Shown here: one piece after another, positions 19,196-56,417 of the stretch
How the letters are laid out: each line of letters starts with the position of its first letter
Position numbering within the stretch: the first letter of the stretch is position 1
Assembly (NCBI GenBank): GCA_977862235.1
Contig: OZ374566.1
Coordinates: forward strand, 620,001-684,000
DNA length: 64,000 nucleotides
DNA from: Dudresnaya verticillata
Taxonomy: Eukaryota
Direction of reading: 5' to 3'
The notes under the pieces: generated by a model
The model's database searches: none
Seen by the model: only the letters and a program-made list of their open reading frames with translations
What the model was told of the DNA's origin: nothing
Program-made: the position numbers and the translations under genes

Positions 19196-20659
19196 ATGAA
19201 CTCTTTTGTCTTGTTCGCTGCCTTCGCGGCGCTCTTCCTCACCGTCCGCGCCGACGATGACGTAGTGGTCGGTACTAAGGACAACTTTGAAGCACTCATT
19301 TCCAAGGATGACCTCACCCTTGTCAAATTTTTTGCCCCGTGGTGCGGCCATTGCAAGAAGATGGCTCCGGACTTCCAGGAGGCAGCTACCGAGCTGAAGG
19401 GCAGGGCCGTCCTGGTCGATCTGGATGCTACCGTGGAGAAGGAGCTAGCCCAGAAGTATGAAGTAAAGGGCTTTCCCACTCTCAAACTCTTCTCCAAGGG
19501 TGAGGTCATCTCTGACTACAAGGGTGGTCGCACGAAGGAAGCCCTCGTCAAGTACATCGAGCGTGCCCTTCTCCCCAGTGTCACCAAGTGCGCTGATGCC
19601 GATGCCGTTGCCGCCTTCGTCAAGGAGAACGCTGGCAAGACTGTTCTCTTCGGTGCTGCCCTTGACAAGTTGGCTTCAGAGTACAACAAGGCTAGCATGT
19701 CCCTTCGTGATGTCATGCCCGACTCGGTTGCATTCGGGATCGTCGACGATGTCGCCCTCGTGAAGGATTTGTCGGACAAGGAAATTACCGCCGACTCGAT
19801 ACTTCTGATCCGTGACGATGAGTCTACTGAGGTCTTCACTGGTGAGGCCGAGGGCCTTGAGGCTTGGGCCAAGATCAACGCCCTTCCGCTCTTTTCGGAG
19901 CTCAGCCGTGACAATGCACAGCTTTACACTGAGCTTGACAAGCCGGTTTTCATCCTCTTCCAGGACCCGGAAAAGAAGGACAAGCAGGTCAACGAGGACG
20001 TCTCCGAGGTCGCCAAGAACCAGCGCGCTGTCGGTGCTTTGGCCTTCGTTTGGATTAATGGTGTTGAATTGAAGAGCTTCGCTGAGCATCTTGGCGTCGG
20101 TGAGAAGGATCCGGCCATCGCACTGTATGACTTCAAGACTGATACGAAGTATGTCTACGGTGAGGAGTACAGCGTAGAGAGCCTCGGCAAATGGGTGCAG
20201 AGCTTTGTTGATGGCAAACTCGACGCGACTACCAAGTCCCAGGATATTCCAGAGAAGAACGAAGAGCCGGTCAAGGTGGTCGTTGGCAACTCGTGGGCCG
20301 ATATTGTCGAGGATGAGACGAAGGACGTCCTCATTGAGCAGTACGCTCCGTGGTGCGGACACTGTAAGAAGCTTGCACCAATTCTTGATGAGCTTGCTGC
20401 TGACCTCAAGGACGTCGAGACTCTAGTTATTGCCAAGATGGACGCTACCCAGAATGATGCACCCGCAGAGTACAAGGCACAGGGTTATCCGACACTTCAC
20501 TTCTTCCCAGCCGGTTCCAAGAAGGGGAACCCATACGATGGTGGCAGGACGAAGGAGGATTTCGTGAAGTTCTTCAAGGAAAACTGCACTCACAAGGAGG
20601 GCATTGAGATTTCAGAAAAGGACGGTGAGGACAAGGAAGACGAAAAGGAAGAGTTGTAA
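19196..20659 (+). CDS. PDI: Protein disulfide isomerase (a-b-b'-a')
   Basis: Signal peptide MNSFVLFAAF, two APWCGHCK motifs, acidic tail ending KEEL. Confidence 0.97.
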   Translation: MNSFVLFAAFAALFLTVRADDDVVVGTKDNFEALISKDDLTLVKFFAPWCGHCKKMAPDFQEAATELKGRAVLVDLDATVEKELAQKYEVKGFPTLKLFSKGEVISDYKGGRTKEALVKYIERALLPSVTKCADADAVAAFVKENAGKTVLFGAALDKLASEYNKASMSLRDVMPDSVAFGIVDDVALVKDLSDKEITADSILLIRDDESTEVFTGEAEGLEAWAKINALPLFSELSRDNAQLYTELDKPVFILFQDPEKKDKQVNEDVSEVAKNQRAVGALAFVWINGVELKSFAEHLGVGEKDPAIALYDFKTDTKYVYGEEYSVESLGKWVQSFVDGKLDATTKSQDIPEKNEEPVKVVVGNSWADIVEDETKDVLIEQYAPWCGHCKKLAPILDELAADLKDVETLVIAKMDATQNDAPAEYKAQGYPTLHFFPAGSKKGNPYDGGRTKEDFVKFFKENCTHKEGIEISEKDGEDKEDEKEEL

Positions 20660-20890: not shown

Positions 20891-21406
20891 TTAATGCTGG
20901 CGTCGTCTAGGCCTCACTTGCGTGAAGCCGTCTTCGTCTATGACTTGTTGTTGGGCTCCTTGGGGCCGAGTTTGAGAGCGTGTGACTGGACCTGTCTGCG
21001 CAGCGTATCGTCCTTCGTCATCAGAATCATTGGCGCCTTCCAGGCTGGCCTGCACTGCTTGGTTGGAAATGCCAGCCTTCTCCACGAGCTCTGTGGCAGG
21101 GGCAAAGTTGCCGGCGGCAGCAGCGTCGCGAACTCTGAGAATCTGGGTGGCAACTTCTTCCGGACTACCGTCTTCAATATCAGCGTTTACCTTCTCAAAC
21201 ATGGAATAGAAAAGATCAGTGTAGTCATCATTTGTATATCTTTTGGAAGTGCTTGTGGCCATCTCGGTAGCAGCTTGTAACAGTTGGTTGGCTTGATATG
21301 GAGCGCCGTTGAACTGATGATCGACGACAAGCTTCAATGCTGTCCAGCGTTCGAAAATGGCGCGAATCGCGATTGACACGGCCTGCGTCGCATTCTCAAA
21401 CTGCAT
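20891..21406 (-). CDS. TSR2: Pre-rRNA processing protein TSR2
   Basis: IFERWTALKLVVDH and DIEDGSPEEVA motifs, C-terminal DEDGFTQV plus basic tail. ATG at 21406. Confidence 0.85.
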   Translation of the reverse strand: MQFENATQAVSIAIRAIFERWTALKLVVDHQFNGAPYQANQLLQAATEMATSTSKRYTNDDYTDLFYSMFEKVNADIEDGSPEEVATQILRVRDAAAAGNFAPATELVEKAGISNQAVQASLEGANDSDDEGRYAAQTGPVTRSQTRPQGAQQQVIDEDGFTQVRPRRRQH

Positions 21407-23042: not shown

Positions 23043-26000
23043 ATGGCTCCCCCGCATCCGCCGATGTTCATCGCACCGTCGGCGTTGCCGGTGCGTCGTT
23101 CGACCCCGCGTCTCGCCAGCACTGCCTTCGTGCCAACGGTGTCGCGTCGGACGCAAGTGCGCCGGTCCGCCGCGCGTGTCACCATGCAGGACCCCTTACC
23201 GGAGCCGCGCACGTGGGACGACTGTACGCTAGAGGATGGCATATCGGCCACCTTGTGGTCCGGACTGTTCGAGAGGTCCACCGTAGAGCTTAAGCGTCGT
23301 GACGACATCAAGAAGATCTTGCTGATCGGGGCGGGTGCCATTGTCATCGGCCAGGGCGCTGAGTTCGACTACTCTGGTACACAAGCCTGCAAGGCGCTCC
23401 GCGCGGAGGGGTTCGAAGTTGTTCTCGTCAACTCCAATCCGGCTACCATTATGACTGATCCGGAGACTGCTGATCGTGTCTATATCGAACCACTTACGCC
23501 GGAGGTCATTGAGAAGATCATCATCGAGGAAAAGCCGGATGCTCTCCTTCCTACCATGGGCGGACAGACTGGTCTAAACCTCGCCACTCGGCTTGCAGAG
23601 GACGGGGTGCTGGAGAAGCATGGTGTTGAGCTTATCGGTGCAAAGCTTGATGCTATTCAGAAGGGGGAGGATCGATTACTGTTCCGTGACGCGATGGAAC
23701 GTATCGGTGTGTCGTGCTGTAGGAGTGGTATTGTTGAGAATATGGAAATGGCGGAGAAGGTCGCGGAAGAGATTGGCAGTTTTCCGCTAATCATCCGTCC
23801 TGCATTCACGCTCGGTGGAACAGGTGGAGGAATTGCATACAACCGACCAGAGTATCTTCATATGGCGCAGATTGGCTTAGAGGCTTCTCCGGTTTCGCAA
23901 ATTCTGGTGGAGCAATCCTTGCTTGGGTGGAAAGAATACGAACTTGAAGTCATGCGGGATGGAGCTGATAACGTTGTCGTTGTCTGCAGTATTGAAAATA
24001 TTGATCCCATGGGCGTGCATACTGGTGACAGTATCACCGTTGCGCCGACGCAAACTTTGACGGACAAGGAGTACCAGAACCTGAGAGACATGGCTGTGGA
24101 TATCATTCGAGAAATTGGTGTTGAAACGGGAGGATCGAACATCCAATTCTCGGTGAACCCTGCGAATGGCGATATCATTGTCATCGAAATGAATCCGCGT
24201 GTCTCGCGATCATCGGCTCTTGCATCGAAGGCGACTGGTTTCCCTATTGCCAAGCTTGCAGCTAAGCTCTCGGTTGGGCTCAGTCTGCCGGAGATTAAGA
24301 ATGACATTACAATGGAAACCCCGGCGTCATTTGAACCGACCTTGGATTACGTCGTGACAAAGGTCCCACGGTTTGCTTTCGAAAAGTTCAGTGGAGCTCC
24401 TGAAACGCTTTCCACTCAAATGCGGGCTGTGGGAGAGGCCATGGCGATAGGCCGAACGTTCATAGAGTCATTCCAAAAGGCACTGCGTAGTCTGGAGACT
24501 GGCCGCTTCGGGTGGGGGTTGGATGGCAAGGATAAAGTAATCAAGAGCCGCACCGCTTTGGAGGCTATGCTGCGTCGCCCCACACCGGAGAGAATCTACT
24601 ATGTCAGGCAAGCTTTTGATGCGGGTATGTCTGTCGAGGAGATCTTCGAAGTTTCCAAGTATGACCCGTGGTTTTTGTGGAAGCTTCGAGAAATTTATGA
24701 CTTGGGAGAAGAGATGAGGAAATGTGCTTCCCTTCAAGACATTCAGACGCAACAGATGTTCGTCTACAAGTCAGCTGGCTACAGCGATCGACAGATAGCT
24801 AGTGCTCTGAACGTGACAGAAGATCAAGTCCGGTTGAGAAGGAAGGAGTTGGGTGTGCGGCCTGTGTTTAAAACGGTGGATACTTGTGCGGCAGAATTCC
24901 CTGCCTTCACGCCCTATATGTACGGTTCGTATGATTCACTACTTTCCTGGGGACCTGAGCTCCAGCTAGAGTCTGAGACTCCACCGCCAACGGGAAAGCA
25001 GAAAGTTGTCATTCTTGGACAAGGACCGAATCGCATCGGACAGGGTATTGAGTTTGACTACTGCTGTGTTCATGCCTGTTTTGCTCTCCGCGATGCTGGA
25101 TTCGAAACTGTGATGATCAACTCGAACCCGGAGACCGTGTCGACCGACTATGACACTGCGGATCGTCTGTATTTCGAGCCTTTGACGTTTGAGGATGTCG
25201 TGGCGGTTCTTGAGGCGGAGAAACCTGATGGTGTTGTGGTTCAGTTTGGAGGGCAGACTCCGTTAAAGCTTGCAGTCGCGCTAGAGGCGTATTTGGCCTC
25301 CGATGAAGCGAAGGAGGCTGGCCTGGATTGTAAGATTCTTGGTACTCCGCCAGACTCCATTGATGCGGCAGAAGACCGCGACCGTTTTATGGATATTCTG
25401 CAGGAGCTTGGAATTCGCCAGCCGGCGAATGGCATTGCAAGGTCATACGAAGAGGCTGCTAATGTGGCCGATAACATTGAGTATCCAGTGGTAGTCCGAC
25501 CGAGCTATGTGTTGGGTGGACGGGGAATGGAAATTGTTTTCAATGAGGAAGAGCTAAAGAGGTACATGACTGCTGACGTAGTCGTCGAATCCGAACATCC
25601 TGTCCTTATTGACCGTTTCCTTGACAATGCGACAGAAGTTGATGTAGATGCTATAGCCGATATGCATGGAAATGTTGTTATTGGAGGTATCATGGAGCAT
25701 ATCGAAGCTGCGGGTATTCATTCAGGTGATTCCGCTTGTTCGATCCCAACTATTTCGATTCCTTACAACGCAATGGTGACAATCCGGTCTTGGACAGTGG
25801 CATTGGCAAAGCGCCTTGGGGTTATTGGTTTGATGAATGTGCAGTGGGCAGTCCAAGGCGAAAACGTGTTCATCCTGGAAGCAAATCCGAGAGCATCGAG
25901 GACAGTTCCCTTTGTCTCCAAGGCAATTGGACAGCCTCTTGCGAAAATTGCATCTCTTGTTATGATGGGGTCTAACCTACGAGAGCTTGGTCTTGACAAG

Positions 26001-26639
26001 GAGATCATTCCCCGATACACGAGCGTGAAGGAGGCTGTCCTGCCATTTAAAAAGTTTCCAGGCGCTGATATTTTGCTTTCCCCAGAGATGCGGTCGACTG
26101 GGGAAGTCATGGGTATTGACGATTCATTCGCCATGGCCTACGCCAAGGCAGAGCTTGCGTCAGGGCTAGTCATACCGACATCAGGAACCGTGTTCATGAG
26201 TCTTGGCGATCAAGACAAAGATTCAGCTGTTCCTATTGCATTTGATCTTGTGGACCTGGGTTTCCAGTTGTATGCCACTCGAGGAACGTACGTGAAGCTT
26301 ATCGCAGGAGGACTGAATCCAACAGATGTGGAAATGGTGTTGAAAGTTCACGAGGGTCGCCCTCATGTTCTTGACAGGATTAAGAACGGGGATGTCAATC
26401 TCTTCATCTGCTCCCCAAGCAGGAAGCCAGAAGACCTGGAGAGCACAAGGGCAGTGAGAAGCGCTGCTCTCTCTTCGAATGTCCCATACGTGACAACTGT
26501 GGCCGCTGCTAGGGCAATTGCTCAAGCTATTCGCGTTCTGCAGACACAAGAGATCACAGTGAAGGCCATGCAAGAATATCACAAGACCACTCCACCCGTT
26601 GCCTTGCAAGGAGCTGCAAATTTCGCTACTTCAGTATAG
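23043..26639 (+). CDS. carB: Carbamoyl-phosphate synthase large subunit, plastid-targeted
   Basis: [29 protein letters not shown], two ATP-grasp halves ([38 protein letters not shown]), MGS domain, Ser/Arg-rich transit peptide. Confidence 0.97.
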
Positions 26640-26947: not shown

Positions 26948-29900
26948 TTAGACCGAGGGAGCGCTTCGTGCCTGCTCTGCAGCTTTTCGCGTACGAATGC
27001 CGTAGACATAAGGACCTCGAACGCCACCATGATTATGTCTGTCCCACTCACCAGTAACCTCAAGTTTCAGAATTTTTGAGAAGAAGGCCTTTATCCGGTA
27101 GATCTTTAGCTTATCCTTCTCGGATGTGCATTGCTTGTGGTAGTCATCCTTTAAGTTACACAGCCTGATGTAGTCCTTAGAAGTGTGCCTGTCCGTGTTT
27201 CCAGTCAACTCATACGTTACCGAAAGGTAGTGCGCAAATCCATGATACTCATGATCTTCCTTCGCAAGAATAGCTGCCAGCATTTCCTGTCTGCTCTTCA
27301 GTGAAGTTGTACATTGCTGGCTCGTCTCTGCGCCGCTCCTTCGCTGTGATGCCGAAACTCTTCCGTGTCCCCGGCTTCTTGGACTCGCTTGTGCTCTTGA
27401 TTCTCCTCGGCTACGCCCGGCGGACTGACTAGCGTTTCGACGATTACGGCCTGGACCCTTGGCCTTCGGCCCGGACCTCGTAGTTTTGCCCTGCACCGGC
27501 TTTGCACCCCGTGACCGACCGTCTGGACTATGTAGCGAGGTAGTTTGCATTGCATCGCCTTGAGCGGGCGCTGGGAACTGACGCACATTGCTTTCCCCAT
27601 CTCCCGCGACAAATTCAGCCGGCTGCACAGTCTTAAGTGCAGTGCGAGTCTGTGAGTCAGAAGCAACATTGATCTCCACCTCTCTTCCTCCGGCAGCAAC
27701 AGCCGCAGCCGCAGCCGCAGCAACAGTAACGCTGTTTGCTGGTGGAGCTGTTCGAGCACCCGGGGGGCCTATTTTCGTAGTCCCTTGTATTGCAGAGTGC
27801 TGCGGAATACCAGCAGCAGCTTGGGCATGGAGCATTTCAGAGGCCTGAGCTGCGCCGAAATACATTGGATGTGGCGGCAACCCGTATGGATTCTGAGCTC
27901 CTGCATGGGCCTGAGGTTGTGATGACATTGGTATATTGCCATAGGAACCGTTCTGTGGCAATGCATTAGACAGCACTGATGGATCAAACATTCCTGTCCC
28001 ATACATTCCGTACCCAACCGGAAGCATACCGGACATGGCAAGCTTAGCAGCATTCGGCGCTGCCGATCCAGGCGTGACTTCACCTCTTTCGCTGTTTCCT
28101 AAGGAATGTGGATTGACAACAGGCAAAACGTGATGAAAGCCGTAGAACTGACCCATTCCAAACTGGTGAGCATACATACCACTTGCTCCATCTGTGCCTT
28201 GAAAGGCTGGACTTATACTTGCATCTGCTGCACTTGACGAAGGTCCCACAACGACAGGAGGGGCTGCCACGGGAACCCCTGCGACCGTGTTCACTGCACC
28301 GTTGGTGCCATTTGCTCCAGATGCGTACATGCTGTCAATCACAGAGTGAATATGTGCATGCTGTTGTTGCTGCGGGGGCGGTGCGGGCTGTGCAGGTTGT
28401 GGTTGCTGCGGGGGTTGTGGGGGCTGTGGAGCCTGTTGGGTTGCGGGTTGCGTTTGCTGATGCTGCGGGTGTGTCGGGTGCGATGTGTGTTGGGCTTGGT
28501 GTTGCTGCTGCTGCTGCTGCTGCAGGTTGAACTGTTGCAGCTGGTGAAATTGCCGAAGCTGTTGCAGCTGCTGAAACGACTGGAACTGCTGCTGTGGTTG
28601 AGGTTGTGGATAGTGGGCATGAGAGCCTCCAATACCCAGCGGAAGGGACGACAGAGCGTGTGGCCCTAAGTATGACGGAAACTGTGTTTGTGCTTGCCCT
28701 GATGCAGGTTTTTCCTTGGCTCTAGACTGATCTGAATGCTGTTGGCCCTCTATACCTGTTGACAATGGCTCAGAAGGCAACTTCGGGGCTTCCGGTGGGT
28801 TTGTCAAGACGGTGGGTTCATACTTCATTTGATGTTCCAGCTGGTCCACACCGAGCACACCGGATTGACCGTGAAGTATCCCTTGCGCCTCACTGCTGTT
28901 CTCATTGGCAAACGATGCAACTTCAACGTCCGCACCTAAGGCTACAATATCTGTAGAAGCAGACAGCATAGCAGAAGCAGGAGTTTGCTCATGCGCTGTG
29001 ATAAGTGCATGCTCAATGGACTCGTGTTGATCTCCCATCGGCACAGCTAGCGCACCCTCCGCAAGACTGGCAGTATCCATAGCAATGAGCGGATCGCTGC
29101 CAGAGGAAGCACTAGACAAGAAAGTAGACTGCTGATCACACTGCAAGAGGGCCCATAGCGATGGCAGAAGACTCATCTTTCCCGACAACGCAGCGGTGTC
29201 ATCAACTTGCAAGACCTCGGGCTCTTCCTTTGGCCATTCTTTGATAATATCCTCATCCTTGACGTCAAGAATACCTCGCAGTACCGACATGCCTGAAAAA
29301 ATACGCTTCATGATTCTCATTGCCTTCAAGGCTCTAGTTCTCGCTTCTCCAACCTGCACAATACGGTTCGGATAAGTCTTCCCGAGCTCAACGCCTGATG
29401 ATTTGAGCAATTCTGGTGGTGCTTTCCATGGTTGGTGCACAAACTCGGTAGGCAGTTTTGCCAGTTCCGGGAGCCATCGTCGGACGTAGCTACCCGACGG
29501 GTCATGACGATACGCTACCTTCACAGGGTTTACAAGGCAGCTTACTGGGAATGCGTCGGTATTACTTCCTGCAGTCCATTGCCATCCTAATGCGTTTGAT
29601 GAGCGGTCCCCATCAATGAGGAGCTTGTAAAACTCCTTCAGACCTCTAGACCACGGAAGCAGCAAATACTTCGTCAAGAAGCATGCAACTAGGAATCGCA
29701 TGCCATTGTGGATCCAACCAGTCTCCTCTAGCTCTCGCATCGCAGCATCAACTATTGGATAGCCTGTTTTCCCGCTTCGCCAAGACTCGAAAGACCCGTT
29801 GTCTTCAGCCCACGGAAAGCTCGCAAACTCGGGAATGAGGGGCTTTGAGTTAAAATCAGGATTGTGAAACAAAACGTGGTAGGAGAAGTCCCGAAGGCAC

Positions 29901-31306
29901 AAGTTTTTCAAAAAGGCTCGTGCAGACAGCGATATGTGCGGCAAACCAGGCTTCTTATAGTTCTTCGGAGTATGTCTGCCAGGATCTCCACTCCGGTTCT
30001 TCCCCGCTTTCGATGTATTCGAACTATCCTTGCCATCGGTACCATGCCCGCGCGATTGGCCATTAGCTGCTGGCAGCTTATCATCCAGATCAACATCTGA
30101 GGGTCTATCCGGCTCCTCCTTCCGCCTCTTCTTGGTCACCATGCCGTTCTCCCCCGCCCCATTTTTAGCTAGCTTCGGCCCCTCACGCTGAAGAGAGGGA
30201 TCATGCTTCCCCTGACCTGGTCTTCTCCTTTGGTATGGGCGCTGAAAGAAGCTTGCTCTGTCCCATCGCGAAACCCGCAATCTCGTCGAGTGGTACATTC
30301 GCCGCGGGCTAAGCTCCCCAAATCGAATATGAGGACTTAATCTACTCGTTCCATCAAAGTGGCGACGACATCGTCCTTCTCCGAAAGCTGGAAAGACCTC
30401 GTGCAAAAACTTGTCAAGTTGAACTTTAGCTTGCTTGCTCCCGGGTATCCATATCTTAGACATATAATCATGCGTCTTTGTAGGAATCTCCAGTCCTAGA
30501 GAACCAATGCCTATTGACATCACTGCGCGCGTAATGGGCTGTAACCGAGAAGGACATGGAAACGGTTGCGGTGGAGGGGGAACGGTCATCCACTCTCGCA
30601 TGTACCCATGAAACGTATCAAAGCACGGCGACACGTCCGTATTCGATAGCTCCCACGGCTCCACAAGCAACTCAGCCTTGAAACTTTCAGCAGTGAGACC
30701 CTCATGCCCTAGTTCGACACGAAGATCTTCATCACGAGTCAACAGGTCTGGCTCGTAGCAACGATTCCAGAACACAGCATCAGCCCCAGTTTCCGCAAGA
30801 AAATTCCGAAGCTCGTCTGTGCTATGCCCTTCCCGCGTGTAGAGCTGTACACCAAGGCGTTTCAAGTCGTACTCTAATCGACTAAGAGACTCGCGAAGCC
30901 ACCATTGTTTCACTGGACCAAGGCCAGACCCGAAGCCGTCGGACGGGTCCCAGACAAACAATGGGACAACCGGACCACCTCGCTGAGCAGCGGCTAGCAA
31001 GGCGGGGTGGTCTTCGACGCGCAAGTCGTGGCCGCGATACCACACGACGCTCGGTTTGCGAAACCATTTGGCGGTGGCAGACGGAGGCCCAGGTGCGGTT
31101 GTGGCGGGTGGGGGATGCGGCGGCGGCGGGGACGGGCTCGGCGACGAAGACGGCGAGGGCGGCGAGGCGCCAGGCGGGGATGGAGAGGATAACGAGTATG
31201 GCGGGCTAGAGGTACGGCGGCGCTTGGCTGGAGGTGAACGGTTGCGCGATGGGCGATGCAGGGCGGTCGGCGGTTGACCCGGCGGGGACGAGTGTGCCGG
31301 TAGCAT
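26948..31306 (-). CDS. CRY: Plant-like cryptochrome (photolyase/cryptochrome family) with very long C-terminal extension
   Basis: PHR domain: VVWYRGHDLRVEDHPAL, TSRLSPHIRFGELSPR, GKTGYPIVDAAMREL, LLIDGD...NALGWQW, DPSGSYVRRWLPELAKLP...HQPWKAP. Poly-Q/Pro C-terminal extension. First in-frame ATG at 31306; frame open from 31372. Confidence 0.92.
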   Translation of the reverse strand: MLPAHSSPPGQPPTALHRPSRNRSPPAKRRRTSSPPYSLSSPSPPGASPPSPSSSPSPSPPPPHPPPATTAPGPPSATAKWFRKPSVVWYRGHDLRVEDHPALLAAAQRGGPVVPLFVWDPSDGFGSGLGPVKQWWLRESLSRLEYDLKRLGVQLYTREGHSTDELRNFLAETGADAVFWNRCYEPDLLTRDEDLRVELGHEGLTAESFKAELLVEPWELSNTDVSPCFDTFHGYMREWMTVPPPPQPFPCPSRLQPITRAVMSIGIGSLGLEIPTKTHDYMSKIWIPGSKQAKVQLDKFLHEVFPAFGEGRCRRHFDGTSRLSPHIRFGELSPRRMYHSTRLRVSRWDRASFFQRPYQRRRPGQGKHDPSLQREGPKLAKNGAGENGMVTKKRRKEEPDRPSDVDLDDKLPAANGQSRGHGTDGKDSSNTSKAGKNRSGDPGRHTPKNYKKPGLPHISLSARAFLKNLCLRDFSYHVLFHNPDFNSKPLIPEFASFPWAEDNGSFESWRSGKTGYPIVDAAMRELEETGWIHNGMRFLVACFLTKYLLLPWSRGLKEFYKLLIDGDRSSNALGWQWTAGSNTDAFPVSCLVNPVKVAYRHDPSGSYVRRWLPELAKLPTEFVHQPWKAPPELLKSSGVELGKTYPNRIVQVGEARTRALKAMRIMKRIFSGMSVLRGILDVKDEDIIKEWPKEEPEVLQVDDTAALSGKMSLLPSLWALLQCDQQSTFLSSASSGSDPLIAMDTASLAEGALAVPMGDQHESIEHALITAHEQTPASAMLSASTDIVALGADVEVASFANENSSEAQGILHGQSGVLGVDQLEHQMKYEPTVLTNPPEAPKLPSEPLSTGIEGQQHSDQSRAKEKPASGQAQTQFPSYLGPHALSSLPLGIGGSHAHYPQPQPQQQFQSFQQLQQLRQFHQLQQFNLQQQQQQQHQAQHTSHPTHPQHQQTQPATQQAPQPPQPPQQPQPAQPAPPPQQQQHAHIHSVIDSMYASGANGTNGAVNTVAGVPVAAPPVVVGPSSSAADASISPAFQGTDGASGMYAHQFGMGQFYGFHHVLPVVNPHSLGNSERGEVTPGSAAPNAAKLAMSGMLPVGYGMYGTGMFDPSVLSNALPQNGSYGNIPMSSQPQAHAGAQNPYGLPPHPMYFGAAQASEMLHAQAAAGIPQHSAIQGTTKIGPPGARTAPPANSVTVAAAAAAAVAAGGREVEINVASDSQTRTALKTVQPAEFVAGDGESNVRQFPAPAQGDAMQTTSLHSPDGRSRGAKPVQGKTTRSGPKAKGPGRNRRNASQSAGRSRGESRAQASPRSRGHGRVSASQRRSGAETSQQCTTSLKSRQEMLAAILAKEDHEYHGFAHYLSVTYELTGNTDRHTSKDYIRLCNLKDDYHKQCTSEKDKLKIYRIKAFFSKILKLEVTGEWDRHNHGGVRGPYVYGIRTRKAAEQARSAPSV

Positions 31307-32687
31307 GCGGGGCTCGGTTGGGAGTCGAACCGCAGTTCCGCGCGAGGGGGTGGTGGCCACTGTGACGAGGCGTTACGCGGGGAGGTTGGCGGGGGTCATC
31401 GACATTTGGGGCGAGGATAAGGAGAAGTTATAGGGACGGACGCGGTGGCGGTCACGTGGAGTGGATGCGGCTGTCGGTCGGCGGAGGGAGGGAGGGGGAG
31501 ACAGGTGGCACATGAGGGCAGGAGCTTTGTCGGCTTGTGGAGCATGCACGGAGGAAATTTGGTCCCGGTTTGTTACACGGTTGCGGTTCGGCTGCGGGTC
31601 GCGGGGTGAGCGCCGCAGCGAGTTTGTTGTTGCCGCATGATGCCGTGGGGCTAAATTACGGCCTTTGATTTGCGGCCCGCCGGGGCATTGGCGGAGAGGG
31701 GCAGACGTACTGTAAAGCAGCGCTTCCGGGCGGCCCTCTGCTCTCCCCACATCCGCAACCTCCTCTCTGCTCTCCGCTCCACATTGTGAACTGCGATCCG
31801 AACGGAGCGGTCGCGCCATTTCTTTTAAACGACCATGGCCAGCATGCAACAGAAAGCCAAGCGCAGCAGCATTACGCCGTCTACCCGCCATCAATTGCTC
31901 CCCACCTACACTATCAAGCTATGCAGCTCTCTGATAAAATCCTGCTAGAGCTCAAGAGCAACCCTGTTTCTAAACTCACTAGCTGCATCCAAAAAACGTA
32001 CAACGGCCATTTTGCGAGAGAACTCCTCACGCCCGCCGTCGCCCCGGCGCGGAAAGGAGTTCGTTAGTGCTTCATCAGGCGAGTGCTAGGGTTGCCTGCG
32101 GGTCCAGCTCGAGTCAAGCATTTCAGGCCAGTCATGGTGCTAGCGGCGTATGGCGATATTTCCATGGCCCAAACTGGTGTTCGAGAACGCCCGGCGCCAG
32201 ACCGCCGCTGCCCGGCGGTGACCGCTCGCTTCTGGTACGTCGTGTTGAGGAAGGTGATTTGAAGCCGCGCGAATCTCCCACTCCGCCTCCAAAATACTCG
32301 ATCGACAAATCATTGCCCGAGCTGTAGCGGCTCGAAAATATCTTGGGATTTACCCAGCAACCCCTTCGGTCTCCAGGGTCTCATGGCACGCCGGGCACAT
32401 GGTGGCCGCTCTCCCGATGGCTCACAACCAGTCGCTGCACAACATGGAGAGAAACCCGCCCAATCTAACAGAATAGTGAATTTATTTAAAGACGGGGCAC
32501 CCGCAGTGTCCTAGCAGTAATGTACCAACCCTATATCCCACTGTAAAGTGGCCACTTCAAAGTGGTAATGTGTGTGCACAAGCGGAACAGAAAACCGGAG
32601 CACCGGGAGAAAATGCTGATGGAAGGCCTTGACGATATTTCCAGGAGCGCCTTCGGTCGGGCTCTTTTTATGTCATCGAGAACGGCC

Positions 32688-33860: not shown

Positions 33861-34710
33861 GGAGCTCCGCAGGATTGATGAGCATGCACAAAGAAAACTT
33901 GGACCGGTGTGGTACCCAGTTGGGGGTTGCAGTCCGGGCCGGGCCAGGGTCACCGCAGCTAGTTTGCTGTGGCCCCACGGCAGCATGATGCTACTGAGGG
34001 GCTAATTATTGCCTTTGATTTCCGGACCGCCGGGAACACCGGGGCATTGGCGTTGAGGGGCAGGCCTACAGCAATGCAGTCCTTCGAGGGCGGCTCCGCT
34101 CCCCACATGCGCGACCTCTGCTCTCCGCTCCACTTTGTCACTGCGATGCAAACGGCCGCCCCGCTCAAATTTTATACCATGGCAAGCGCAGAACATAAAG
34201 CCAAGCGCAGCAGCTTTGCGCTATCTACCCGCTATCAATTTTTTCCCAACTATACCGCTCTCCAATAAAACAATTGCAAGAGCAACCCGGTTTCCGAACG
34301 TAGTCGCTCTATCCAACAATTTAGAACGGCAATTTCGCGTGAGAACTCCTCACGCCCGCCGTCCCGCCGCTACAAAGAGTAGTTCGTTAGACCTGCAGCA
34401 AGCGAGCAAAGCATTCTGTCGCCCAACGGGGGCAATCCATCTTTTATTTCGATCTCTACTATAGATCCAATCTATGACTCGCCTTATTAACTGGATCACT
34501 CCATGAGCAAGATGCGTTCCACCAACGCAGCCGCGGAAGGCGCAGATCCGACGACCACTACGACTGTCAGTTCTCTGTGTAATTTCTTTGCGGTCTGCTT
34601 CTGTAAGGTTTGAGTGTAATTCACACGGCAGATATGACAAAACTTCCGGGGAGTTCCGGCTTCCAACGCCGCCCAGAGATCGAAGCAGCACATTCCACCG
34701 TTGCCCTTCG
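33861..34710. repeat. Diverged direct duplicate of the cryptochrome upstream region
   Basis: 33861-34390 aligns with 31521-32067 (gagaactcctcacgcccgccgtc, agccaagcgcagcagc) and 34565-34710 aligns with 32738-32875 (ctgtcagttctctg, cattccaccgttgccctt). Confidence 0.85.
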
Positions 34711-35313
34711 TTAGCACCCAGCCCCCTTTCAAAAAATACCCAAAATTCCGTGTTTCGATATGATCGCAAAGCATACCTGATCTTACAGTAAGTGTTACTT
34801 TCCCTTGCCGCCATTTCGGGTGTCATGAACCCAGTACGCATTTTCTCTCGTTTTTTTCCAAAAAATCCACTCTGCCCGTCGGCCGAGGGCAACCCGCTGA
34901 GCGGGACGCCAAATTTCGTTTCGACGTTTTTCACTTGCAGCATTTGTCCCGACTGCCTCCGACCGCCACTAGCCCAGCCAGCACCGCCTCCGCCACCCCC
35001 GCCCATACCCCCAACCTTTCGCTTGGCTACGCGCAATTAACGACACCCCTTCTTCCCCTGCTTTCCATTGCCTGTCCTTCCTTCCTATCCCTTCCCATTT
35101 CTCCTTCCCTCCGGCCCTCCTCATTATTCCCCAGCATCGCCGCGCCGCTGGTCGGCGCGTGCTTCGCTACCCGGCCCTCACCGTTGCGTTCTCTTTTTTT
35201 CCTCGCTCAACTTGCTCGACAACTTTATCTCCCGTTTCATTTTCCTATCTCGCGCTCTTGCCCTCCCGCTCATCCCGCCTCATTTTTTCCTTCAACCTCC
35301 CGCTCGGTCCGTC

Positions 35314-38300
35314 ATGGCATCCGCCCTGGACTCGCGCCCAGGCCCGTCGACTGAACATGACGCGGCCCTTGAGGTAGAGGAGGCAGAGCTCTCGTCTGAC
35401 ATAGAAATCGACCCGCCTCGTTCTAAATCTCCTGCGCGCTCACCACCGCGAGATGACGATGACTTCGTCCTTGACGACGAGGATGATGACGACGACGACC
35501 AGTCCGTCCCTCCCTCTCCATCCCCAGGTCCAAACCCTGATCCCGCAGCCCCGGGCTCCAAACAGGATCCCACGCATCACGGCTCTGCAGATCCCGAATC
35601 CGATCACCCATCTGCTGCCAGACATCTTTCTGACCCCCGGTCGAAGACGGTCGGTGACGCACCCCACCCCGGAAGCCACAGCTCCAGCAGCAACGAGAGC
35701 GGCAGCTACAGCGAGTCATACTCCTCCCCAGCCGCCTTTTCCTCGGATGACGATGATGCCAAAGATAAGGACCATCTCCCGGAGGATGATGAGGCGTCCG
35801 AAGATGACGAAGATGAAGTTCTTGGCGATGGTCAGACCCGCCTCACCTCTAAGCGCGAATCGAATGATGATGAGGATGGTCCAGCAAATGCCGGCACGGG
35901 GGATAGCGACAGTGATGACCCATCAAACGCCATCCGCCGTAAAAAGGCACGACGCCGTGCTCGCAAGCTTGTTATTCCCGACGATATGGTCGACGACAGC
36001 CAATATTTTCGCCGCTCAAGCCGGCCTCGAACGGCACCTGCCCGCCTTACTCCATCGGCGAGTGATTCCCCATCCAGTCCTAGCGGTCACTCTGGAAGTG
36101 ACTCCGACTTCAATGCTGATGGTGGTAAGTTGTGTCTTTTTGACTTCAAGCGCTAGCATCGTGTAGATGCCTGATGTTGTCATCACCTTCGTCATCTCCA
36201 CTACTGTTTAAGACTAACATTATTCCTATCTGGCCTATTCCTGTTTTCCTTTTCTTCTTTTCCGAAGGACATATGGCTGATGATGATGACGATGACGATG
36301 TTGACATGGAGGACTTAGACGACGAAGACTATTCCACTCGACCGAAGCGCCGCACTCGTGTTTCCCGAGCACGGACTACGATATCGCGGAAACGCGCACA
36401 AGAGAAAGCGGAACCCGAGGAGGAGATCCTCCAGGACGAGTTTTCGGAATCCGGGTCTGATGGAGACTGGCGCGATGAGGGAAAGAAGAAGCCATTTGGT
36501 AGAAGGCGTAGGTCAAGAGGAAAACCTAGCGCGAAGCGAAGACGGGTGTCCCCTGTCGAAGATGATGAGGTAGCTCGTACAGCGCGCATCAATAGTCGAA
36601 CGGGTGATTCCGTCAACTATTTCGAGGGTGACGACGATTCTCTCCTAGACTCTGACGAGCAGAACAGGCCCGGTGGTCGTATGCAAGAGGAGGTGGATGA
36701 AAGCGTCCCTCGAATAGATCGAGTCCTTGATTACCGGCCTACTTCGGATGCACAGCCCGAAGCAGAAGGGACAGCACCACCTCCATTCCAAGATTTCCAT
36801 CGAGAATCCGTTGAGTTCAGGATCAAGTGGGTAAACAAGTGCTTCCGAAGGAGCACCTGGGAGACCTGGGCGACTTTGCAGAATGTCAAGGGGCATAAGC
36901 GCGTCAGAAACTACATCCAGAAGGTGGAGGAAAGACAGGCTTTTTTTCGCAATCCTGCTCGGTTTAAACCTGAAGATGTCGAGGAAACACGTTTGATAAG
37001 GGAAGAACACCGCGCAGTCCTCAGGGAACACGAAGTAATCGCCCGTATTATGGCTCAACGAGAATCCGCTGACGAACCCTCACAGACTGAGTACCTCGTA
37101 GTTTGGAAAAGTCTGGAGTATGCAGACAGTACATGGGAACCCAGATCATCATTGACCTCTGAAGCAGATCTTAAGGCCATTGATGAGTACAGGGATCGGG
37201 AGCAGGGAGCGTTGGGGAATGCAAGCAAGAAGCGGTACAATCCCTTCAACGTCAAGGATGAAAGGCCCCGCTTTAAGAGATTGTTCGAGCAACCCGGGTA
37301 CTTACATGGCGAAGGGCGTACGCTGCGCGACTATCAGCTGGCGGGATTGAACTTCCTAGCGTTTTCGTGGACTAAACGAAACAATGTCATCCTTGCTGAT
37401 GAAATGGGCCTCGGCAAGACTTTGCAAACGATATCTTTCCTAGGATGGCTGATGTACTCCAGAAATGTACTCGGCCCTTTTCTCGTGGTCGTCCCTCTAA
37501 GTACGATTGATGCCTGGATTCGAGAATTTGCGCGATGGTTACCTGATATGAACGTGGTCCGGTACAGCGGCACTGCCGCATCAAGAGTACTTATCCGAGA
37601 ACATGAGTTCCGCGTCACAAATGGAACCTCAGAAAAGTTCCACGTGCTACTCACTACACCTGAGATGGTTATGCTGGATGAGAGCTATCTCGCCGAAATT
37701 CGATGGGCAATGATAGCTGTTGACGAGGCTCACCGGCTGAAGAACGAAACAAGCGCTCTGCACGTTACCCTAGCCAGCCTTCGTTCGGCTAACAGACTGT
37801 TAGTTACTGGGACCCCGTTGCAGAATTCTGTTCGGGAGCTTTGGGCGCTCTTGCACTTCCTAAACCCCGAGGTTTTCCAGAATGCGGACCTTTTCGAAGA
37901 TCAATTTTCTTTCTTGGCTCTTCGTGACCCAGAACGTGTCAGCTCCCTTCACAAGACCTTGCGGCCATATATCATTCGGAGGCAGAAGACTGATGTGGAG
38001 AAGTCACTCCCGAAGAAGACGTATGCGGTGTTACGAGTAGGGATGACTTCGCCGCAACAACAGTACTACCGCTGGCTCTTGACGAAGAATTTTGCAAAGC
38101 TGAATGCGGGAAGCAAAAGCCGAGGACTGGGAACTACCGCCACGTTGCGTAACTTGGTCATGGAACTGAAAAAGTGCTGCAACCATCCGTTCTTGTTCCC
38201 AAACTATGAGGACACGTCCACGCCAACCAGTGTGAGTGAGCTCATTAGAGCCTCCGGTAAGATGATCCTGCTTGACAAACTGTTGCTCCGTTTGAGGGAA

Positions 38301-40562
38301 AAAGGACACCGAGTGTTGATATTTTCCCAAATGGTGCGAATGTTGGATATTCTGCAAGACTACTGTCGGATGCGACAATTCCCATACCAACGTCTCGATG
38401 GACAGGTCACAAATGTTCAAAGACAAAGGGCAGTTGACCACTTCAACGCCCCCGAATCGAATGACTTTTTGTTTTTACTGTCCACGAGAGCGGGCGGCTT
38501 GGGAATCAACTTGGCCACCGCGGATACGGTTATCATCTTTGATTCGGACTGGAACCCTCAAAACGATCTGCAGGCAGAAAGTCGTGCGCATCGAATTGGT
38601 CAGACGAAGGACGTGAAAGTCTTCCGCCTACTGAGCCGCGAAACAGTCGAAGAAGACATTCTCGAGCGCGCAAAGCGAAAGCGTGTGTTGGAGCACTTGG
38701 TCATTCATGGTGTTGAGGGTGGTGGGCCAACAGAAGGAAAGGAGGCACAGGTGGCCTTCAAGAAGGAAGAGCTAAGTGCGATTTTGAGGTTTGGTGCAGA
38801 GAAACTCTTCGAGAAGGACAGTGCGCACGCAGACGCCAATGCGGTGAAGGGGACGATTGGCAATGATGTGAAGGAGAACGGGGTTGCTTCAAATGCACCA
38901 ACAGCCCAGGATGTGGGCGTGCATGAGAAAGACGAGAAGGCTGAAGAACGAAGGGTACTTGAAGTTGATGATATTGACGAACTTCTAGCGCGGGCACCAA
39001 CCGATGAGGCGTCCCAAGTTGGCGAGGCCCAGCCCAGTGTTGGGGATTCTCTTCTCAACGCTTTCAAATGGGCCGACTTCAAGACTGTCGAGGAGGAGGA
39101 AGAAGATAGTAATGAAACCGGGGACAATGAGGAAAGGGCCAAGAATGCTTCCAATCGCCTCATTGCTATTGATAGACAGACCTTGCAAGCGAAGAAAGTT
39201 GAAGAAAAGGAGGTATTGAAGTATTCTAAGGAGGGCGACGCTGAGTTTTGGGACCGGGTGATTCCAGGAGACCTGAAGGAGCAGGCTTTGGTACAGGACG
39301 TTGTACTGGGTACCCGCCGAAGAAAGCGAACGAGGACTTTCAATGCAGACTCCCCGCGAGACGGAAAGCGCAGGAGGATGACACGGACCAGTCGAAATGT
39401 CGTTGGGAAGGTCGCAGATGGGGATGAACTCTCGGCAAAGGAGCAAAGAAGTATCTTGCGTTCCTTGCGAAAGTTTGGGGATCCAAGATTGTCGGGTGTT
39501 ATTATCAAGGATGCGGGTCTGCAAGAGCGTGTCGACGAAGACTTGGTTGGTGCAATGTTGGTGGAGTGCCTTGATACTGCAAAAGTTGTTCTACACGACT
39601 TTGGAAAGGGAAAGCGCAGTTCTCGAAGGAAAAGTGCGGATGCAGACGATGATCCAGAATATGATTCCAGAGAGGAAAGCCGTGCAAACGGAAAGGGAAA
39701 GGCCAGCAGGCCGCTGTTCGATGTGCTTGGTGAGAAGGGGGTTGATGCTGCCGATCTGCTAAAGCGATGCAATGACTTGCAGATGCTTCGAAAACACGTG
39801 CAGTCGTTCGAGCCAGACACACAGTTTCGCTTGCGTCGCGTAATCAAGGCGCCTTCATACAATGTTCGATGGAAGGGTCAGAATGATGCCATGCTCCTGG
39901 TCGGCGTGTGTAGGCATGGTTTTGGCAACTGGTTGCAAATAGCTCAGGACAAGCAACTAAGCCTGAGCGACAAGATGAACGTTGCCGGTAACACGTCTTG
40001 TAAACCTGGTGCGCCGGATACAACCAAGCTGACCCGAAGAGTACAGTCTCTACTGAGGGAGGTCGAGAAGGAGCTGCGTCCTGCCTCTTCGACAAAGAAG
40101 AATCGTGCTCAATCTAAAACAGAGGGAAAGGCGGTTAAGAAAACAAAGGCTCCTGGACCGCAGAAGAAGATTTCGAAGAGTAGACAGAAAGGCGCCTCAA
40201 GGTCTCGAATCGAGCAGGCTAAAGGCTCGTCTAAGAAAGATGGACGTGAGCTAGCCCAGCGGCAGGCGCTAAAGGCGGGGCACTACGAGACGATGAAGGA
40301 ACTTCGCAAGCTATCAAGGGAGGGTGGGGCTATGAACAATCAAATGCGAATTGAATTGACGAAGAATTGCTTGCTACTGCTTGGTGGTGGCATTGGTGAG
40401 CTGGCAAAGAAGAAGTCAAAGCTGGAACGCTCGCTATGGAAGTATGTCCAAGAAGCTTGTGAGACTAATCTAAACGGAGAACGGCTTCGAGATATTTATG
40501 AGAGAATACATGCGCACGAATCCAAGGATGACAAGGAAAACAAAGAGCAGGTTCCAAGCTAA
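35314..40562 (+). CDS. CHD1: CHD1-type chromodomain SNF2 helicase; exons 35314-36124 and 36268-40562
   Basis: Double chromodomain (IKW..TWE; YLVVWKSLEYADSTWEP), ILADEMGLGKT, DEAHRLKN, LKKCCNHPFLF, SDWNPQNDLQAESRAHRIGQ, SANT/SLIDE (DAMLLVGVCRHGFGNW). Intron 36125-36267 (GTAAGT...ACTAAC...AAG). Confidence 0.95.
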
Positions 40563-45500: not shown

Positions 45501-45625
45501 GGTAGCCGGAATCGGCAAAGCGGGCGGCCGGAGAAGGCCGTGGCGGCAAGCGGGCGGTAGCGGGCGCGCCGGGCGGGGGGCGGCGGTGTTGCAAAAAGCG
45601 GGGGGGTTGTGCCGCGGGGTGGCAT
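42527..45625 (-). CDS. Plastid-targeted tandem COG0523/CobW (G3E GTPase) metallochaperone
   Basis: C-terminal module has GFLGSGKTT, NGCICC, VETTG, SKTD, a His-rich loop and CobW_C (RAKG...NQLVIIG). N-terminal module is a degenerate G domain plus CobW_C (RARRPFHP...GDRETEIVFVG). Pro/Arg/Ala transit peptide. Confidence 0.9.
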   Translation of the reverse strand: MPPRGTTPPLFATPPPPARRARYRPLAATAFSGRPLCRFRLPAQPRPARVIVLAVQTRPVSGDSDGEVRDAPQKSYSVGVTIVSGCDARLRRNVIEKIAARSDAGRVVVVTTGGIVSTDEPDGRVVMEETVLGEDANAPEPKPEELNGVATPVPQEVSDAAPTPVENLEGWISCSSPEEMAEVVAKLAAGRDCDYIVAEGSTGSSMEPQDLARLLHSRGGASLRVDSLVSVLDGDTVLHDLSANAPLSSSEQDVMDAPEIPVDTADTAAMHDSTDTRPMAVISLVENANVIVVSSSADDVQPESLSMVQNLLSVLNGSASILPATDDIVPVDQLVNTNAYDHESVMQGATWKKVLIASRNAGKGLTRPVLPKSVKDSTFVFRARRPFHPTRLYEHIKAVATFQGVIRSTGRIWLATRMLAPLVWNQAGVAATLSLGKLFWAAVPEADWPQDEEREKIMENWDTQYGDRETEIVFVGMGIDKERLQGLLDGCLLQDEEMVFTNMWENFEDPFVEWVPLIDEEDEASHEHDVEAAAEAQLNSTNPSTEDVLEGEAGTAEELLSEESTSGEGETSEDPRGALEENGGQIDPMELPDEEYEKISALEIFERGFPVDDDEPASNSALMPQPADDGAYDEDDVVIASWEGDVADGILTQMPKSGLPVTVVTGFLGSGKTTLLNYILSANHGLRIAVLVNEYGEIDIDNQLVEKGDWNSGDEVIELANGCICCSINDSFVNAVSTILERRDTIDYLVVETTGVADPVPVINSLMVSDIAGKVRVDGILTLVDAENFNSETNMNSEAALSQIMAADTILLSKTDIADPQKVQGTIEYIKSIRPAARILRSQRGRVPISMVLDVGVRVSDSPAHLNPVKKTHAIDTNESEHGHDCGHDHDHHQDHSAHDHDHSSEHAHSHNHECGTGCADESHSHDHSNHLEADGFVTTSFKSDAALDPELFMDKFLQQLPEGVFRAKGLLRFYGFGGRYVFQLSGRRYQFEEDDWPDGVAPGNQLVIIGRDLDIDSLRNTLEACLAEEQT

Positions 45626-56153: not shown

Positions 56154-56185
<32 letters not shown>

Positions 56186-56417
56186 GCGGTTGTGGTTGTG
56201 GTTGTTGATGTTGGTATTGATGATGTTGTTGTTGTTTTTGTTCGTTCTGTTGGTGTTCCTGTTTCTGGTGCAGCAACGGTGGCGGCGGAGACGGCGGTGG
56301 CGGGGACGGAGGCGCAGGGGCCGGGGCCGGAGCTGGGGCCGGGGGGGACGGCGGGCGGGCGGGCGGCCCCGTGGTGGCCGCGCCGGCCTTTCCGCTCACG
56401 ACAGCAGCCCACGACAT
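53784..56417 (-). CDS. Terminal uridylyltransferase (Cid1/URT1/TUT7-like) with Pro/Gln-rich N-terminus
   Basis: YGS...ADVDM, ARVPVIK, DVCVNN...RNTELL, GTLSSYAY, and IEDPFDIDHDL carrying the UTP-selecting His of Cid1-type enzymes. ATG at 56417. Confidence 0.9.
56030..56240 (-). repeat. CAA/CAG trinucleotide repeat encoding poly-Q in the TUTase
   Basis: Long tgt/tgc arrays on the plus strand. Confidence 0.9.

What the first reader, a model, noticed from the sequence alone, without database searches (positions are those of the whole stretch)
26985..27250. Cryptochrome ending in an RFX/D5-like winged-helix domain: candidate one-component blue-light transcription factor
Seen: after several hundred residues of low-complexity extension, the ORF ends in a compact, normal-composition segment, YLSVTYELTG...DYIRLCNLKDDYHKQC...IKAFFSKILKLEVTGEWDRHNHGGVRGPYVYGIRTRK, with no stop or intron between it and the PHR domain. 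Established: RFX DNA-binding domains follow WLxxNYE...LYxxYxxxC...YxYYG[IL]R, and D5/primase C-terminal winged helices end similarly. Characterised plant and animal cryptochromes have no DNA-binding domain of their own. Inference: a flavin photosensor linked to a poly-Q activation-like region and a winged helix, analogous to aureochromes or fungal WC-1. Caveat: the RFX TRRLGTRG wing is not conserved, so any DNA specificity would differ.
Basis: partly seen in the sequence, partly recalled or inferred. Interest (0 to 1): 0.9.

Follow-up and report, generated by a model that had tools for sequence, protein, structure and literature searches.

The report
Red-algal cryptochrome with RFX-like winged helix
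A red-seaweed gene encodes a plant-type cryptochrome (a likely blue-light sensor) joined in one reading frame to a conserved, unannotated end domain that is predicted to fold like the DNA-binding part of RFX transcription factors, so these proteins would likely switch genes directly instead of through the partner proteins that land-plant cryptochromes need.

Summary
Observation confirmed. One uninterrupted ORF (26948-31306, minus strand, 1452 aa) joins a photolyase-homology region to a compact C-terminal domain of about 109 aa that has no Pfam name. The domain is conserved from Cyanidiophyceae to Florideophyceae in two paralog groups (Gc-pCRY1/CmPHR3 and Gc-pCRY2). 75 of 75 carriers of 560 aa or more that passed the coverage filter have the FAD domain; one kinase fusion fell outside it. 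Models of both paralogs rank the RFX1 and RFX5 DNA-binding domains first in the PDB (Z 7.6 and 6.4, middling). D5/primase winged helices lead the viral and Atlas searches. The predicted wing is the best-conserved part. It is not an RFX family member (14-20% identity; no sequence-level hit). The poly-Q is not conserved (7 of 72). The FAD pocket keeps the tryptophan triad, has lost three CPD-repair residues and has Asn where plant cryptochromes have Asp396. A published paralog is nuclear and was amplified as full-length cDNA. DNA binding and light control are untested: about 0.55 for a one-component light-regulated transcription factor. Nine paper searches found no description. This scan reported the same domain earlier on C. 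merolae PHR7 (e1-558018).

The parts
26948..31306 (-). Single ORF, 1452 aa: plant-type cryptochrome with C-terminal winged-helix domain (same clade as Gracilariopsis chorda Gc-pCRY1, PXF43553.1)
31067..31306 (-). Pro/Ser-rich N-terminal extension (residues 1-80) with a basic cluster at 28-31; poorly conserved
30554..31051 (-). DNA_photolyase alpha/beta domain, residues 86-251
   Evidence: E 2.8e-39
29942..30259 (-). Unconserved basic, low-complexity insertion of about 105 aa inside the photolyase-homology region (residues 350-455), with a basic cluster at 392-396
29315..29914 (-). FAD-binding domain, residues 465-664: Trp499/552/575 triad and Arg537-Asp565 kept; Asn571 at the AtCRY1 Asp396 position; Asn468, Leu471, Phe538 replace photolyase Glu/Gln, Trp, Met
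27311..29251 (-). Low-complexity linker of about 650 aa (acidic, Gln/Pro-rich, Ala-rich, then Lys/Arg-rich); Gln-rich part at about 28352-28609 is not conserved across the family
26984..27310 (-). Conserved C-terminal domain, residues 1333-1441, predicted RFX/D5-type winged helix with one extra N-terminal helix
26999..27058 (-). Predicted wing (residues 1417-1436), the most conserved stretch: 18 of its 20 positions are at least 85% invariant in 102 sequences, including Arg1423 and Arg1430

Best explanation
The gene encodes a red-algal plant-type cryptochrome fused in frame to a conserved domain that is predicted to be an RFX/D5-type winged helix, and the protein likely works as a one-component light-regulated transcription factor in the nucleus. 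Shown here: the continuous ORF, the conservation of the fusion across red algae, the intact tryptophan triad and the loss of three CPD-repair residues. Predicted: the fold. Inferred: blue light photoreduces FAD through the triad; the photolyase-homology region then changes shape or oligomerises as plant cryptochromes do (recalled); this brings two winged helices together or frees them; they read DNA with the conserved basic wing, as RFX does (recalled), but at a different sequence; the disordered linker recruits co-regulators. Asn at the Asp396 position suggests a photocycle closer to photolyases than to Arabidopsis CRY1/2.
For: Fold: AlphaFold2 pLDDT 82.9 and, for a paralog-group domain 41% identical, 78.0. 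In both, RFX1 (1dp7, solved on DNA) and RFX5 (8zjr) rank 1-2 in Foldseek. Among 48,161 chains, Z 7.6 (rmsd 3.4, 81 aligned) and 6.4 (rmsd 3.0, 74 aligned), next 5.3. Viral library: the named top rows are mostly primase/D5 proteins. Atlas: Pox_D5 clusters at 0.96. Conservation is highest in the wing, with Arg1381 102/102, Lys1406 100/102, Arg1423 and Arg1430 97/102; median net charge +4. Fusion: 75 of 75 long carriers have the FAD domain. Photochemistry residues: Trp499 64/73, Trp552 70/73, Trp575 68/73. Repair residues lost: the Trp kept in 113 of 113 bacterial-type relatives is Leu in 65 of 73. Literature: Gc-pCRY2 (PXF48820.1, has the domain) is nuclear in Arabidopsis protoplasts, and most plant CRY partners are absent in red algae (PMC10853006).
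Against: No DNA-binding or light-response data exist for this group in anything I read. Fold scores are middling: Foldseek E 0.025-0.08, Z under 8, which the tool says may reflect only a common arrangement. Winged helices that bind proteins or RNA (Cdt1, cullins, ESCRT-II, Roquin) follow in the same lists. No RFX or D5 hit by sequence. With Pox_D5 skipped, the Atlas gave no RFX cluster. The wing also holds conserved acidic residues (Glu1420, Asp1422), and only its second strand is assigned as strand in both models. Several paralogs have a degenerate FAD pocket yet keep the domain (P0039, P0086, P0087, P0090), and C. merolae PHR3 has Cys at the distal triad position, so the domain's job need not depend on light. 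Linker length varies from 104 to 1052 aa and its Gln content is not conserved.
Confidence: 0.55

Rival explanations
1. The winged helix tethers the cryptochrome to DNA or nucleosomes all the time, with little sequence preference; light changes only which co-regulators (for example COP1) the photolyase region and linker hold.
For: The nearest sequence-feature neighbours are D5/primase C-terminal winged helices rather than RFX. The best structural match is nucleosome-bound RFX5. A long, variable linker makes direct allostery between the two ends unlikely. COP1 is retained in red algae (PMC10853006).
Against: The wing is nearly invariant across both paralog groups and all red-algal classes sampled, which fits one specific partner better than general affinity. 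A rough COP1-type VP motif occurs in only 5 of 71 extensions (motif recalled).
Confidence: 0.2
2. The domain is a winged helix used for protein (or RNA) binding: it docks on the photolyase region in the dark or binds a conserved partner, like the signalling tail of plant cryptochromes.
For: Many winged helices in the hit lists bind proteins or RNA. The wing has acidic and aromatic invariant residues as well as basic ones. One Logan protein (P0089) links the domain to a protein kinase.
Against: The two best matches in both models are RFX DNA-binding domains. The domain is net basic with four near-invariant basic residues.
Confidence: 0.18
3. The protein is a DNA photolyase, and the winged helix anchors it on DNA to raise repair efficiency.
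For: The closest non-red-algal relatives listed are bacterial-type photolyases at 48-56% identity; AtCRY1 and Agrobacterium photolyase 4u63 score alike. Asn571, Asn534 and Trp577 are photolyase-like. Some orthologs are annotated as photolyases.
Against: Three lesion-pocket residues kept in bacterial-type relatives (Glu/Gln 113/113, Trp 113/113, Met 108/113) are Asn, Leu and Phe in 64-65 of 73 red-algal proteins; their role in repair is recalled. Lee et al. class these genes as plant-like cryptochromes.
Confidence: 0.05
4. The fusion is an artefact of assembly or gene calling, or the domain is not translated with the photolyase region.
For: No RNA run was available for this window. 27 of 102 domain carriers are short and lack the FAD domain; in locus L002 the two parts lie in different frames.
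Against: Open frame over 1452 codons; one open frame in L003, L006, L007; complete ORFs from Gracilaria changii, Eucheuma denticulatum and MMETSP transcriptomes; full-length cDNA of Gc-pCRY2 amplified.
Confidence: 0.02

Closest known systems
Red-algal plant-like cryptochromes Gc-pCRY1 (PXF43553.1), Gc-pCRY2 (PXF48820.1), CmPHR3 (BAM80957)
   Same: The window gene groups with Gc-pCRY1 (quick tree); all three carry the C-terminal domain. The genes are already annotated as cryptochromes.
   Different: No paper passage or Pfam entry I saw describes the C-terminal domain. PMC10853006 has no occurrence of 'C-terminal' in its main text and none of 'winged' or 'RFX' in its supplement text.
Plant cryptochromes CRY1/CRY2 (PDB 1u3c, 6k8i, 6lz3)
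   Same: Best PDB sequence match for the FAD region (E 1.2e-62); tryptophan triad kept; repair-pocket Trp replaced by Leu; long C-terminal extension.
   Different: Asn instead of Asp396, Trp instead of Tyr402; an insertion of about 105 aa in the photolyase region; the extension ends in a conserved folded domain, whereas reviews describe cryptochrome tails as poorly conserved and of undefined structure (PMC8591175).
RFX transcription factor DNA-binding domain (RFX1 1dp7, RFX5 8zjr)
   Same: Top structural match in both models, covering 74 of 76 and 81 of 82 residues of the RFX chains.
   Different: 14-20% identity; different and longer wing; extra N-terminal helix; no PF02257 hit; fused to a photolyase region.
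D5/P4-alpha primase-helicase C-terminal winged helix (PF03288 Pox_D5; PDB 1ka8, 8iqi)
   Same: Top Atlas clusters (0.96), top viral structure matches, Z 4.7-5.7 in the PDB.
   Different: No helicase or primase domain; profile comparison with a 12-sequence phage alignment was not significant.
Aureochromes (LOV-bZIP) and other LOV transcription factors; fungal WC-1 (recalled)
   Same: A flavin sensor and a predicted DNA-binding domain in one chain.
   Different: Sensor is a cryptochrome, not LOV; output is a winged helix, not bZIP, HSF or homeobox. PMC8017926 describes such coupling in algae as restricted to secondary-endosymbiosis lineages and finds no LOV transcripts in Rhodophyta.

Membership tests
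Cryptochrome/photolyase family | DNA_photolyase plus FAD_binding_7 domains above Pfam cut-offs | tested here: met
   135 and 246 bits against cut-offs of 27
Plant-type cryptochrome | FAD region closest to plant CRY1/2; repair-pocket Trp lost; tryptophan triad kept | tested here: met
   class III photolyase 4u63 scores almost equally (E 1e-61 against 1.2e-62)
Plant-type cryptochrome | Asp at the AtCRY1 396 position (role recalled) | tested here: not met
   Asn in 68 of 73
Plant-type cryptochrome | Groups with Viridiplantae plant CRYs in a tree | not tested
   No plant sequences were in my tree. Lee et al. call the orthologs plant-like; I saw their tree only as a list of labels.
Plant-type cryptochrome | FAD binding, blue-light photocycle, no repair activity | not testable with these tools
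   needs purified protein
CPD photolyase (class I/III) | Lesion-pocket Glu/Gln, Trp and Met as in bacterial relatives | tested here: not met
   Asn468, Leu471, Phe538
Winged-helix fold, RFX/D5 type | Three-helix bundle with short strands and a C-terminal wing, best matching RFX/D5 chains | tested here: met
   Predicted models only; Z 7.6 and 6.4, Foldseek probability 0.98-1.00 with E 0.025-0.08
RFX transcription factors | At least 40% identity to known RFX DNA-binding domains (PMC2873420) | tested here: not met
   14-20% in structural alignments; no PF02257 hit in 31 of 31 members at E up to 10
RFX transcription factors | Nine conserved DNA-contact residues (PMC2873420) | not testable with these tools
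   The residues are marked only in a figure that is not held, and the fold tools print no residue alignment
Pox_D5 (PF03288) domain | Sequence or profile match to D5 C-terminal domains | tested here: inconclusive
   Atlas 0.96 with 181 shared features, but no Pfam or PHROG hit and hhalign probability 0.2 on a small alignment
One-component light-regulated transcription factor | Sensor and output domain in one polypeptide | tested here: met
One-component light-regulated transcription factor | Light-dependent, sequence-specific DNA binding and transcriptional output | not testable with these tools
   needs EMSA, DAP-seq or ChIP and mutants

The most novel reading that the evidence does not exclude
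Red algae, which lack phytochromes and most plant cryptochrome partners, have since their last common ancestor used cryptochromes that are themselves sequence-specific transcription factors: a photolyase-type sensor fused to a winged helix taken from a D5/RFX-like source, with the two paralogs binding one conserved DNA element as light-induced homo- or hetero-oligomers. This would be the first cryptochrome with its own DNA-binding domain and the master blue-light regulator of the phylum.
Probability: 0.4. Interest if true: 0.9.

Novelty: new variant of a known kind. Interest (0 to 1): 0.76.

Why it matters
How red algae turn light into gene expression is open. They have no phytochrome, cryptochrome is the only plant-type photoreceptor noted in C. 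merolae (PMC8504449), and most plant cryptochrome partners are missing (PMC10853006). A built-in DNA-binding domain would supply the missing link and can be tested now: the domain is about 110 aa, and C. merolae has CRISPR editing (bioRxiv 2021.05.23.445365) and carries the gene as PHR3. It would add a new sensor-output pairing to the known light-regulated transcription factors, extend RFX/D5-type winged helices to Archaeplastida, and offer a possible single-chain optogenetic regulator.

Tried and rejected
Sequence-level assignment of the domain failed: Pfam on the single domain and on 31 members (only a weak DUF4948 match at E 0.03 in 2 of 31), PHROGs, phmmer and hmmsearch against PDB sequences, and hhalign to 12 phage D5/P4-type C-termini (small, poorly aligned set, so weak as a negative). 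The 80 viral loci kept for P4 alpha were 91-100% identical and were not used. A viral copy of the domain: 1 locus from 20 pattern matches, a chance overlap with an unrelated phage ORF, rejected. P0133 (E 2e-4) is a repeat protein and was rejected. DNA for the divergent PHR-less P0132 was not found. No whole genome is held. No RNA holder was listed for the window, which is no evidence either way. The VIA search of the second model could not be run. My first site table had three positions mis-registered; one search corrects it. The tree is the quick fallback, unrooted, without plant sequences, with long branches for degenerate paralogs; it left out P0028, P0085, P0086 and 20 near-duplicate cluster members. 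A conserved poly-Q activation region was considered and rejected (7 of 72). Two papers were not held (PMC5547612, PMC1176014).

Full report
Observation. The window is gene-dense eukaryotic DNA. The finding lies at the 3' end of a minus-strand ORF, 26948-31306, of 1452 aa with no internal stop. Pfam finds DNA_photolyase at residues 86-251 and FAD_binding_7 at 465-664 and nothing significant in the last 130 aa. The window holds one copy of the domain. Its neighbours are housekeeping genes unrelated to it: carbamoyl-phosphate synthase large chain, a thioredoxin-fold protein, TSR2, a SWIRM/Myb protein, CHD1 and telomerase. All named relatives of the ORF are red algal, and it groups with florideophyte sequences.

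Conservation and architecture. The last 128 residues matched 55 of 158 candidates of 798-2541 aa; all 55 carry FAD_binding_7 and 51 also DNA_photolyase. A 31-sequence domain profile found 90 proteins among 7,996 scored: 71 with the FAD domain, 18 without a Pfam domain and one kinase. Against 1.84 billion representatives it found 62 at E up to 0.001 and 59 up to 1e-10, with no distant family beyond them. Named carriers include Cyanidioschyzon, Cyanidium, Cyanidiococcus, Galdieria, Porphyridium, Rhodosorus, Hildenbrandia, Palmaria, Chondrus, Eucheuma, Gracilaria and Gracilariopsis; unnamed records cannot be placed. Of 102 non-identical domains that passed a coverage filter, 75 lie in proteins of 560 aa or more and all 75 have the FAD domain. 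The other 27 are short; 11 of them resemble the linker of a full-length cryptochrome and are probably pieces. The filter dropped the kinase fusion P0089. A quick tree of 72 FAD domains shows two florideophyte clades, 30 rows with the window gene and Gc-pCRY1 (support 87) and 26 rows with Chondrus XP_005715026 (support 100). Along the protein, identity is 0.35-0.69 in the photolyase region outside an unconserved insertion at 350-455, 0.06-0.24 in the linker windows from 751 to 1350, and 0.55-0.63 in the terminal domain. Codon comparison with two metagenome loci shows an excess of synonymous change.

One transcript. No RNA run was listed for the window itself. Complete ORFs with both parts come from transcriptome assemblies of Gracilaria changii, Eucheuma denticulatum and MMETSP. 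Three of four loci that contain both parts have them in one open frame; in L002 they are in different frames. Lee et al. amplified full-length cDNA for seven G. chorda cryptochromes, including Gc-pCRY2; they could not build the Gc-pCRY1 fusion.

Fold. AlphaFold2 on the last 130 aa with 44 sequences gave mean pLDDT 82.9 and pTM 0.72, with helices at 14-26, 33-42, 60-70 and 80-90 and short strands at 43-45, 57-59 and 111-117. Foldseek against the PDB ranked RFX1-DBD (1dp7; E 0.029, probability 1.00) and RFX5 (8zjr; E 0.081) first, with the next row at E 0.69. A full search of 48,161 chains gave the same two on top: Z 7.6 (rmsd 3.4, 81 aligned) and Z 6.4 (rmsd 3.0, 74 aligned), then 5.3. The re-alignment of 265 Foldseek chains put a viral PrimPol C-terminus third at 5.7. 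The named top rows of the viral library are mostly primase/D5 proteins (best E 0.0095). The Atlas gave Pox_D5 clusters at 0.96 with about 180 shared features; with that family skipped, most hits were DUF3874 and none of the rows shown was RFX. A second model, of a paralog-group domain 41% identical (74 sequences, pLDDT 78.0), again ranked RFX5 and RFX1 first (E 0.025 and 0.028, next 0.17); the two alignments share rows, so this is a partial replicate. No hit reached E 0.001 or Z 8, and no sequence method linked the domain to RFX or D5. The agreement of several methods on one subfamily is the evidence, not any single score. By the published criterion of 40% identity (PMC2873420) this is not an RFX protein.

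What is conserved. Thirty-two positions are at least 85% invariant in 102 sequences, and 18 of them lie in residues 1417-1436, the predicted wing. Near-invariant basic residues are Arg1339, Arg1381, Lys1386, Lys1406, Arg1423 and Arg1430; median net charge is +4. That RFX reads DNA mainly with its wing is recalled; I could not map the RFX contacts. The wing also has conserved Glu1420 and Asp1422.

The sensor. The FAD region matches AtCRY1 (E 1.2e-62) and the Agrobacterium photolyase 4u63 (E 1e-61) about equally. The closest non-red-algal proteins listed under 798 aa are bacterial-type photolyases, and none of the 118 new proteins from that search has the domain. With AtCRY1 numbering, the triad Trp324/377/400 is kept in 64, 70 and 68 of 73, and the Arg362-Asp390 pair in 70 and 71. 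Asp396 is Asn in 68. The positions that are Glu/Gln, Trp and Met in 113, 113 and 108 of 113 bacterial-type proteins are Asn, Leu and Phe in 64, 65 and 65 of 73. The roles of these residues are recalled. I infer a flavin-binding, photoreducible protein without CPD repair, whose photocycle may differ from that of Arabidopsis CRY1/2. A few paralogs (P0039, P0086, P0087, P0090) have decayed pockets but keep the domain.

The linker. It is 104-1052 aa long (median 563). Runs of five or more Gln occur in 7 of 72 proteins and a 40-residue window of 30% Gln in 14 of 72; a basic patch before the domain occurs in 23 of 72. A rough COP1-type VP motif (recalled) occurs in 5 of 71. The poly-Q is therefore local to this lineage.

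Literature. P0011 is Gc-pCRY1 and P0267 is Gc-pCRY2; C. merolae BAM80957 is PHR3; all three carry the domain. PMC10853006 (sections 6 and 7 read whole, other passages, a supplement search, and part 1 of 82 of the supplement) reports Gc-pCRY2 as rhythmic and nuclear in Arabidopsis protoplasts, Gc-pCRY1 as non-rhythmic, and most plant CRY partners as absent except COP1. From passages only: PMC8591175 and PMC12558739 (cryptochrome tails), PMC8017926 (sensor-DNA-binding fusions in algae), PMC8504449, PMC13436692, PMC2873420 and bioRxiv 2021.05.23.445365, whose knockout concerns the animal-like PHR1, not this gene. Asimgil and Kavakli 2012 I saw only as a reference. Nine searches found no description of the domain; subscription papers, figures and bioRxiv supplements are not covered. 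I had stated my reading before seeing it; I confirmed the domain in the Cyanidiococcus protein KAF6003995.1, listed next to a second C. merolae protein in the published tree, but did not retrieve PHR7 itself.

Verdict. The fusion is real, ancient within red algae and, as far as searched, undescribed. The winged-helix fold is likely (about 0.9). Direct DNA binding of some kind is about 0.75, and the full one-component, light-regulated transcription factor reading about 0.55. The genes are known cryptochromes and light-sensing transcription factors are a known kind, so I file it as a new variant; a cryptochrome with its own DNA-binding domain would surprise specialists and makes red-algal light signalling directly testable.

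Noticed in passing
protein P0132 (and P0136), JGI contigs of 9-14 kb: A 420-aa Gln/Pro-rich protein ending in a divergent copy of the domain (E 4e-8) with an altered wing and no photolyase region or Pfam hit: possibly a sensor-less transcription factor of the same family. Its DNA could not be retrieved.
   Followed up: partly
protein P0089, Logan contig of 2,856 bases: A protein kinase domain fused to the winged-helix domain, which is interrupted by a low-complexity insertion. One record only; may be a real fusion or an assembly artefact.
   Followed up: partly
proteins P0039, P0086, P0087, P0090: Paralogs in Rhodosorus, Galdieria and a metagenome with decayed FAD-pocket and triad residues that still keep the domain: candidate light-blind partners.
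   Followed up: partly
proteins P0067-P0069, P0143, P0266 (Gracilaria domingensis): Several partial copies of the pCRY1-type gene on different long contigs, some with only the tail and one with only the FAD region; the published tree lists ten such entries. Looks like a lineage-specific amplification of gene fragments.
   Followed up: no
window 29942-30259 (-): A basic, unconserved insertion of about 105 aa inside the photolyase region, with a nuclear-localisation-like cluster at residues 392-396.
   Followed up: partly
L002 20-3762: A metagenome ortholog in which the photolyase region and the terminal domain lie in different frames: an intron, a frameshift or an assembly error.
   Followed up: no
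proteins P0125, P0131: Short copies with a degraded or missing wing, probably decaying duplicates.
   Followed up: no
window 23043-26639 (+), 19196-20659 (+), 20891-21406 (-), 7637-12085 (-), 36174-40562 (+), 42527-45625 (-), 49884-53348 (+), 53784-56738 (-), 61196-63700 (+): Long uninterrupted housekeeping ORFs: carbamoyl-phosphate synthase large chain, thioredoxin-fold (PDI-like) protein, TSR2, SWIRM/ZZ/Myb protein, CHD1, CobW, telomerase reverse transcriptase, Cid1-type polymerase, RSN1-type channel.
   Followed up: partly
window 5974-7215 (+), 34350-35006 (-), 47796-49250 (+), 31373-31891 (-): ORFs of 413, 218, 484 and 172 aa with no Pfam match; the last lies directly upstream of the cryptochrome and may be non-coding.
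   Followed up: no
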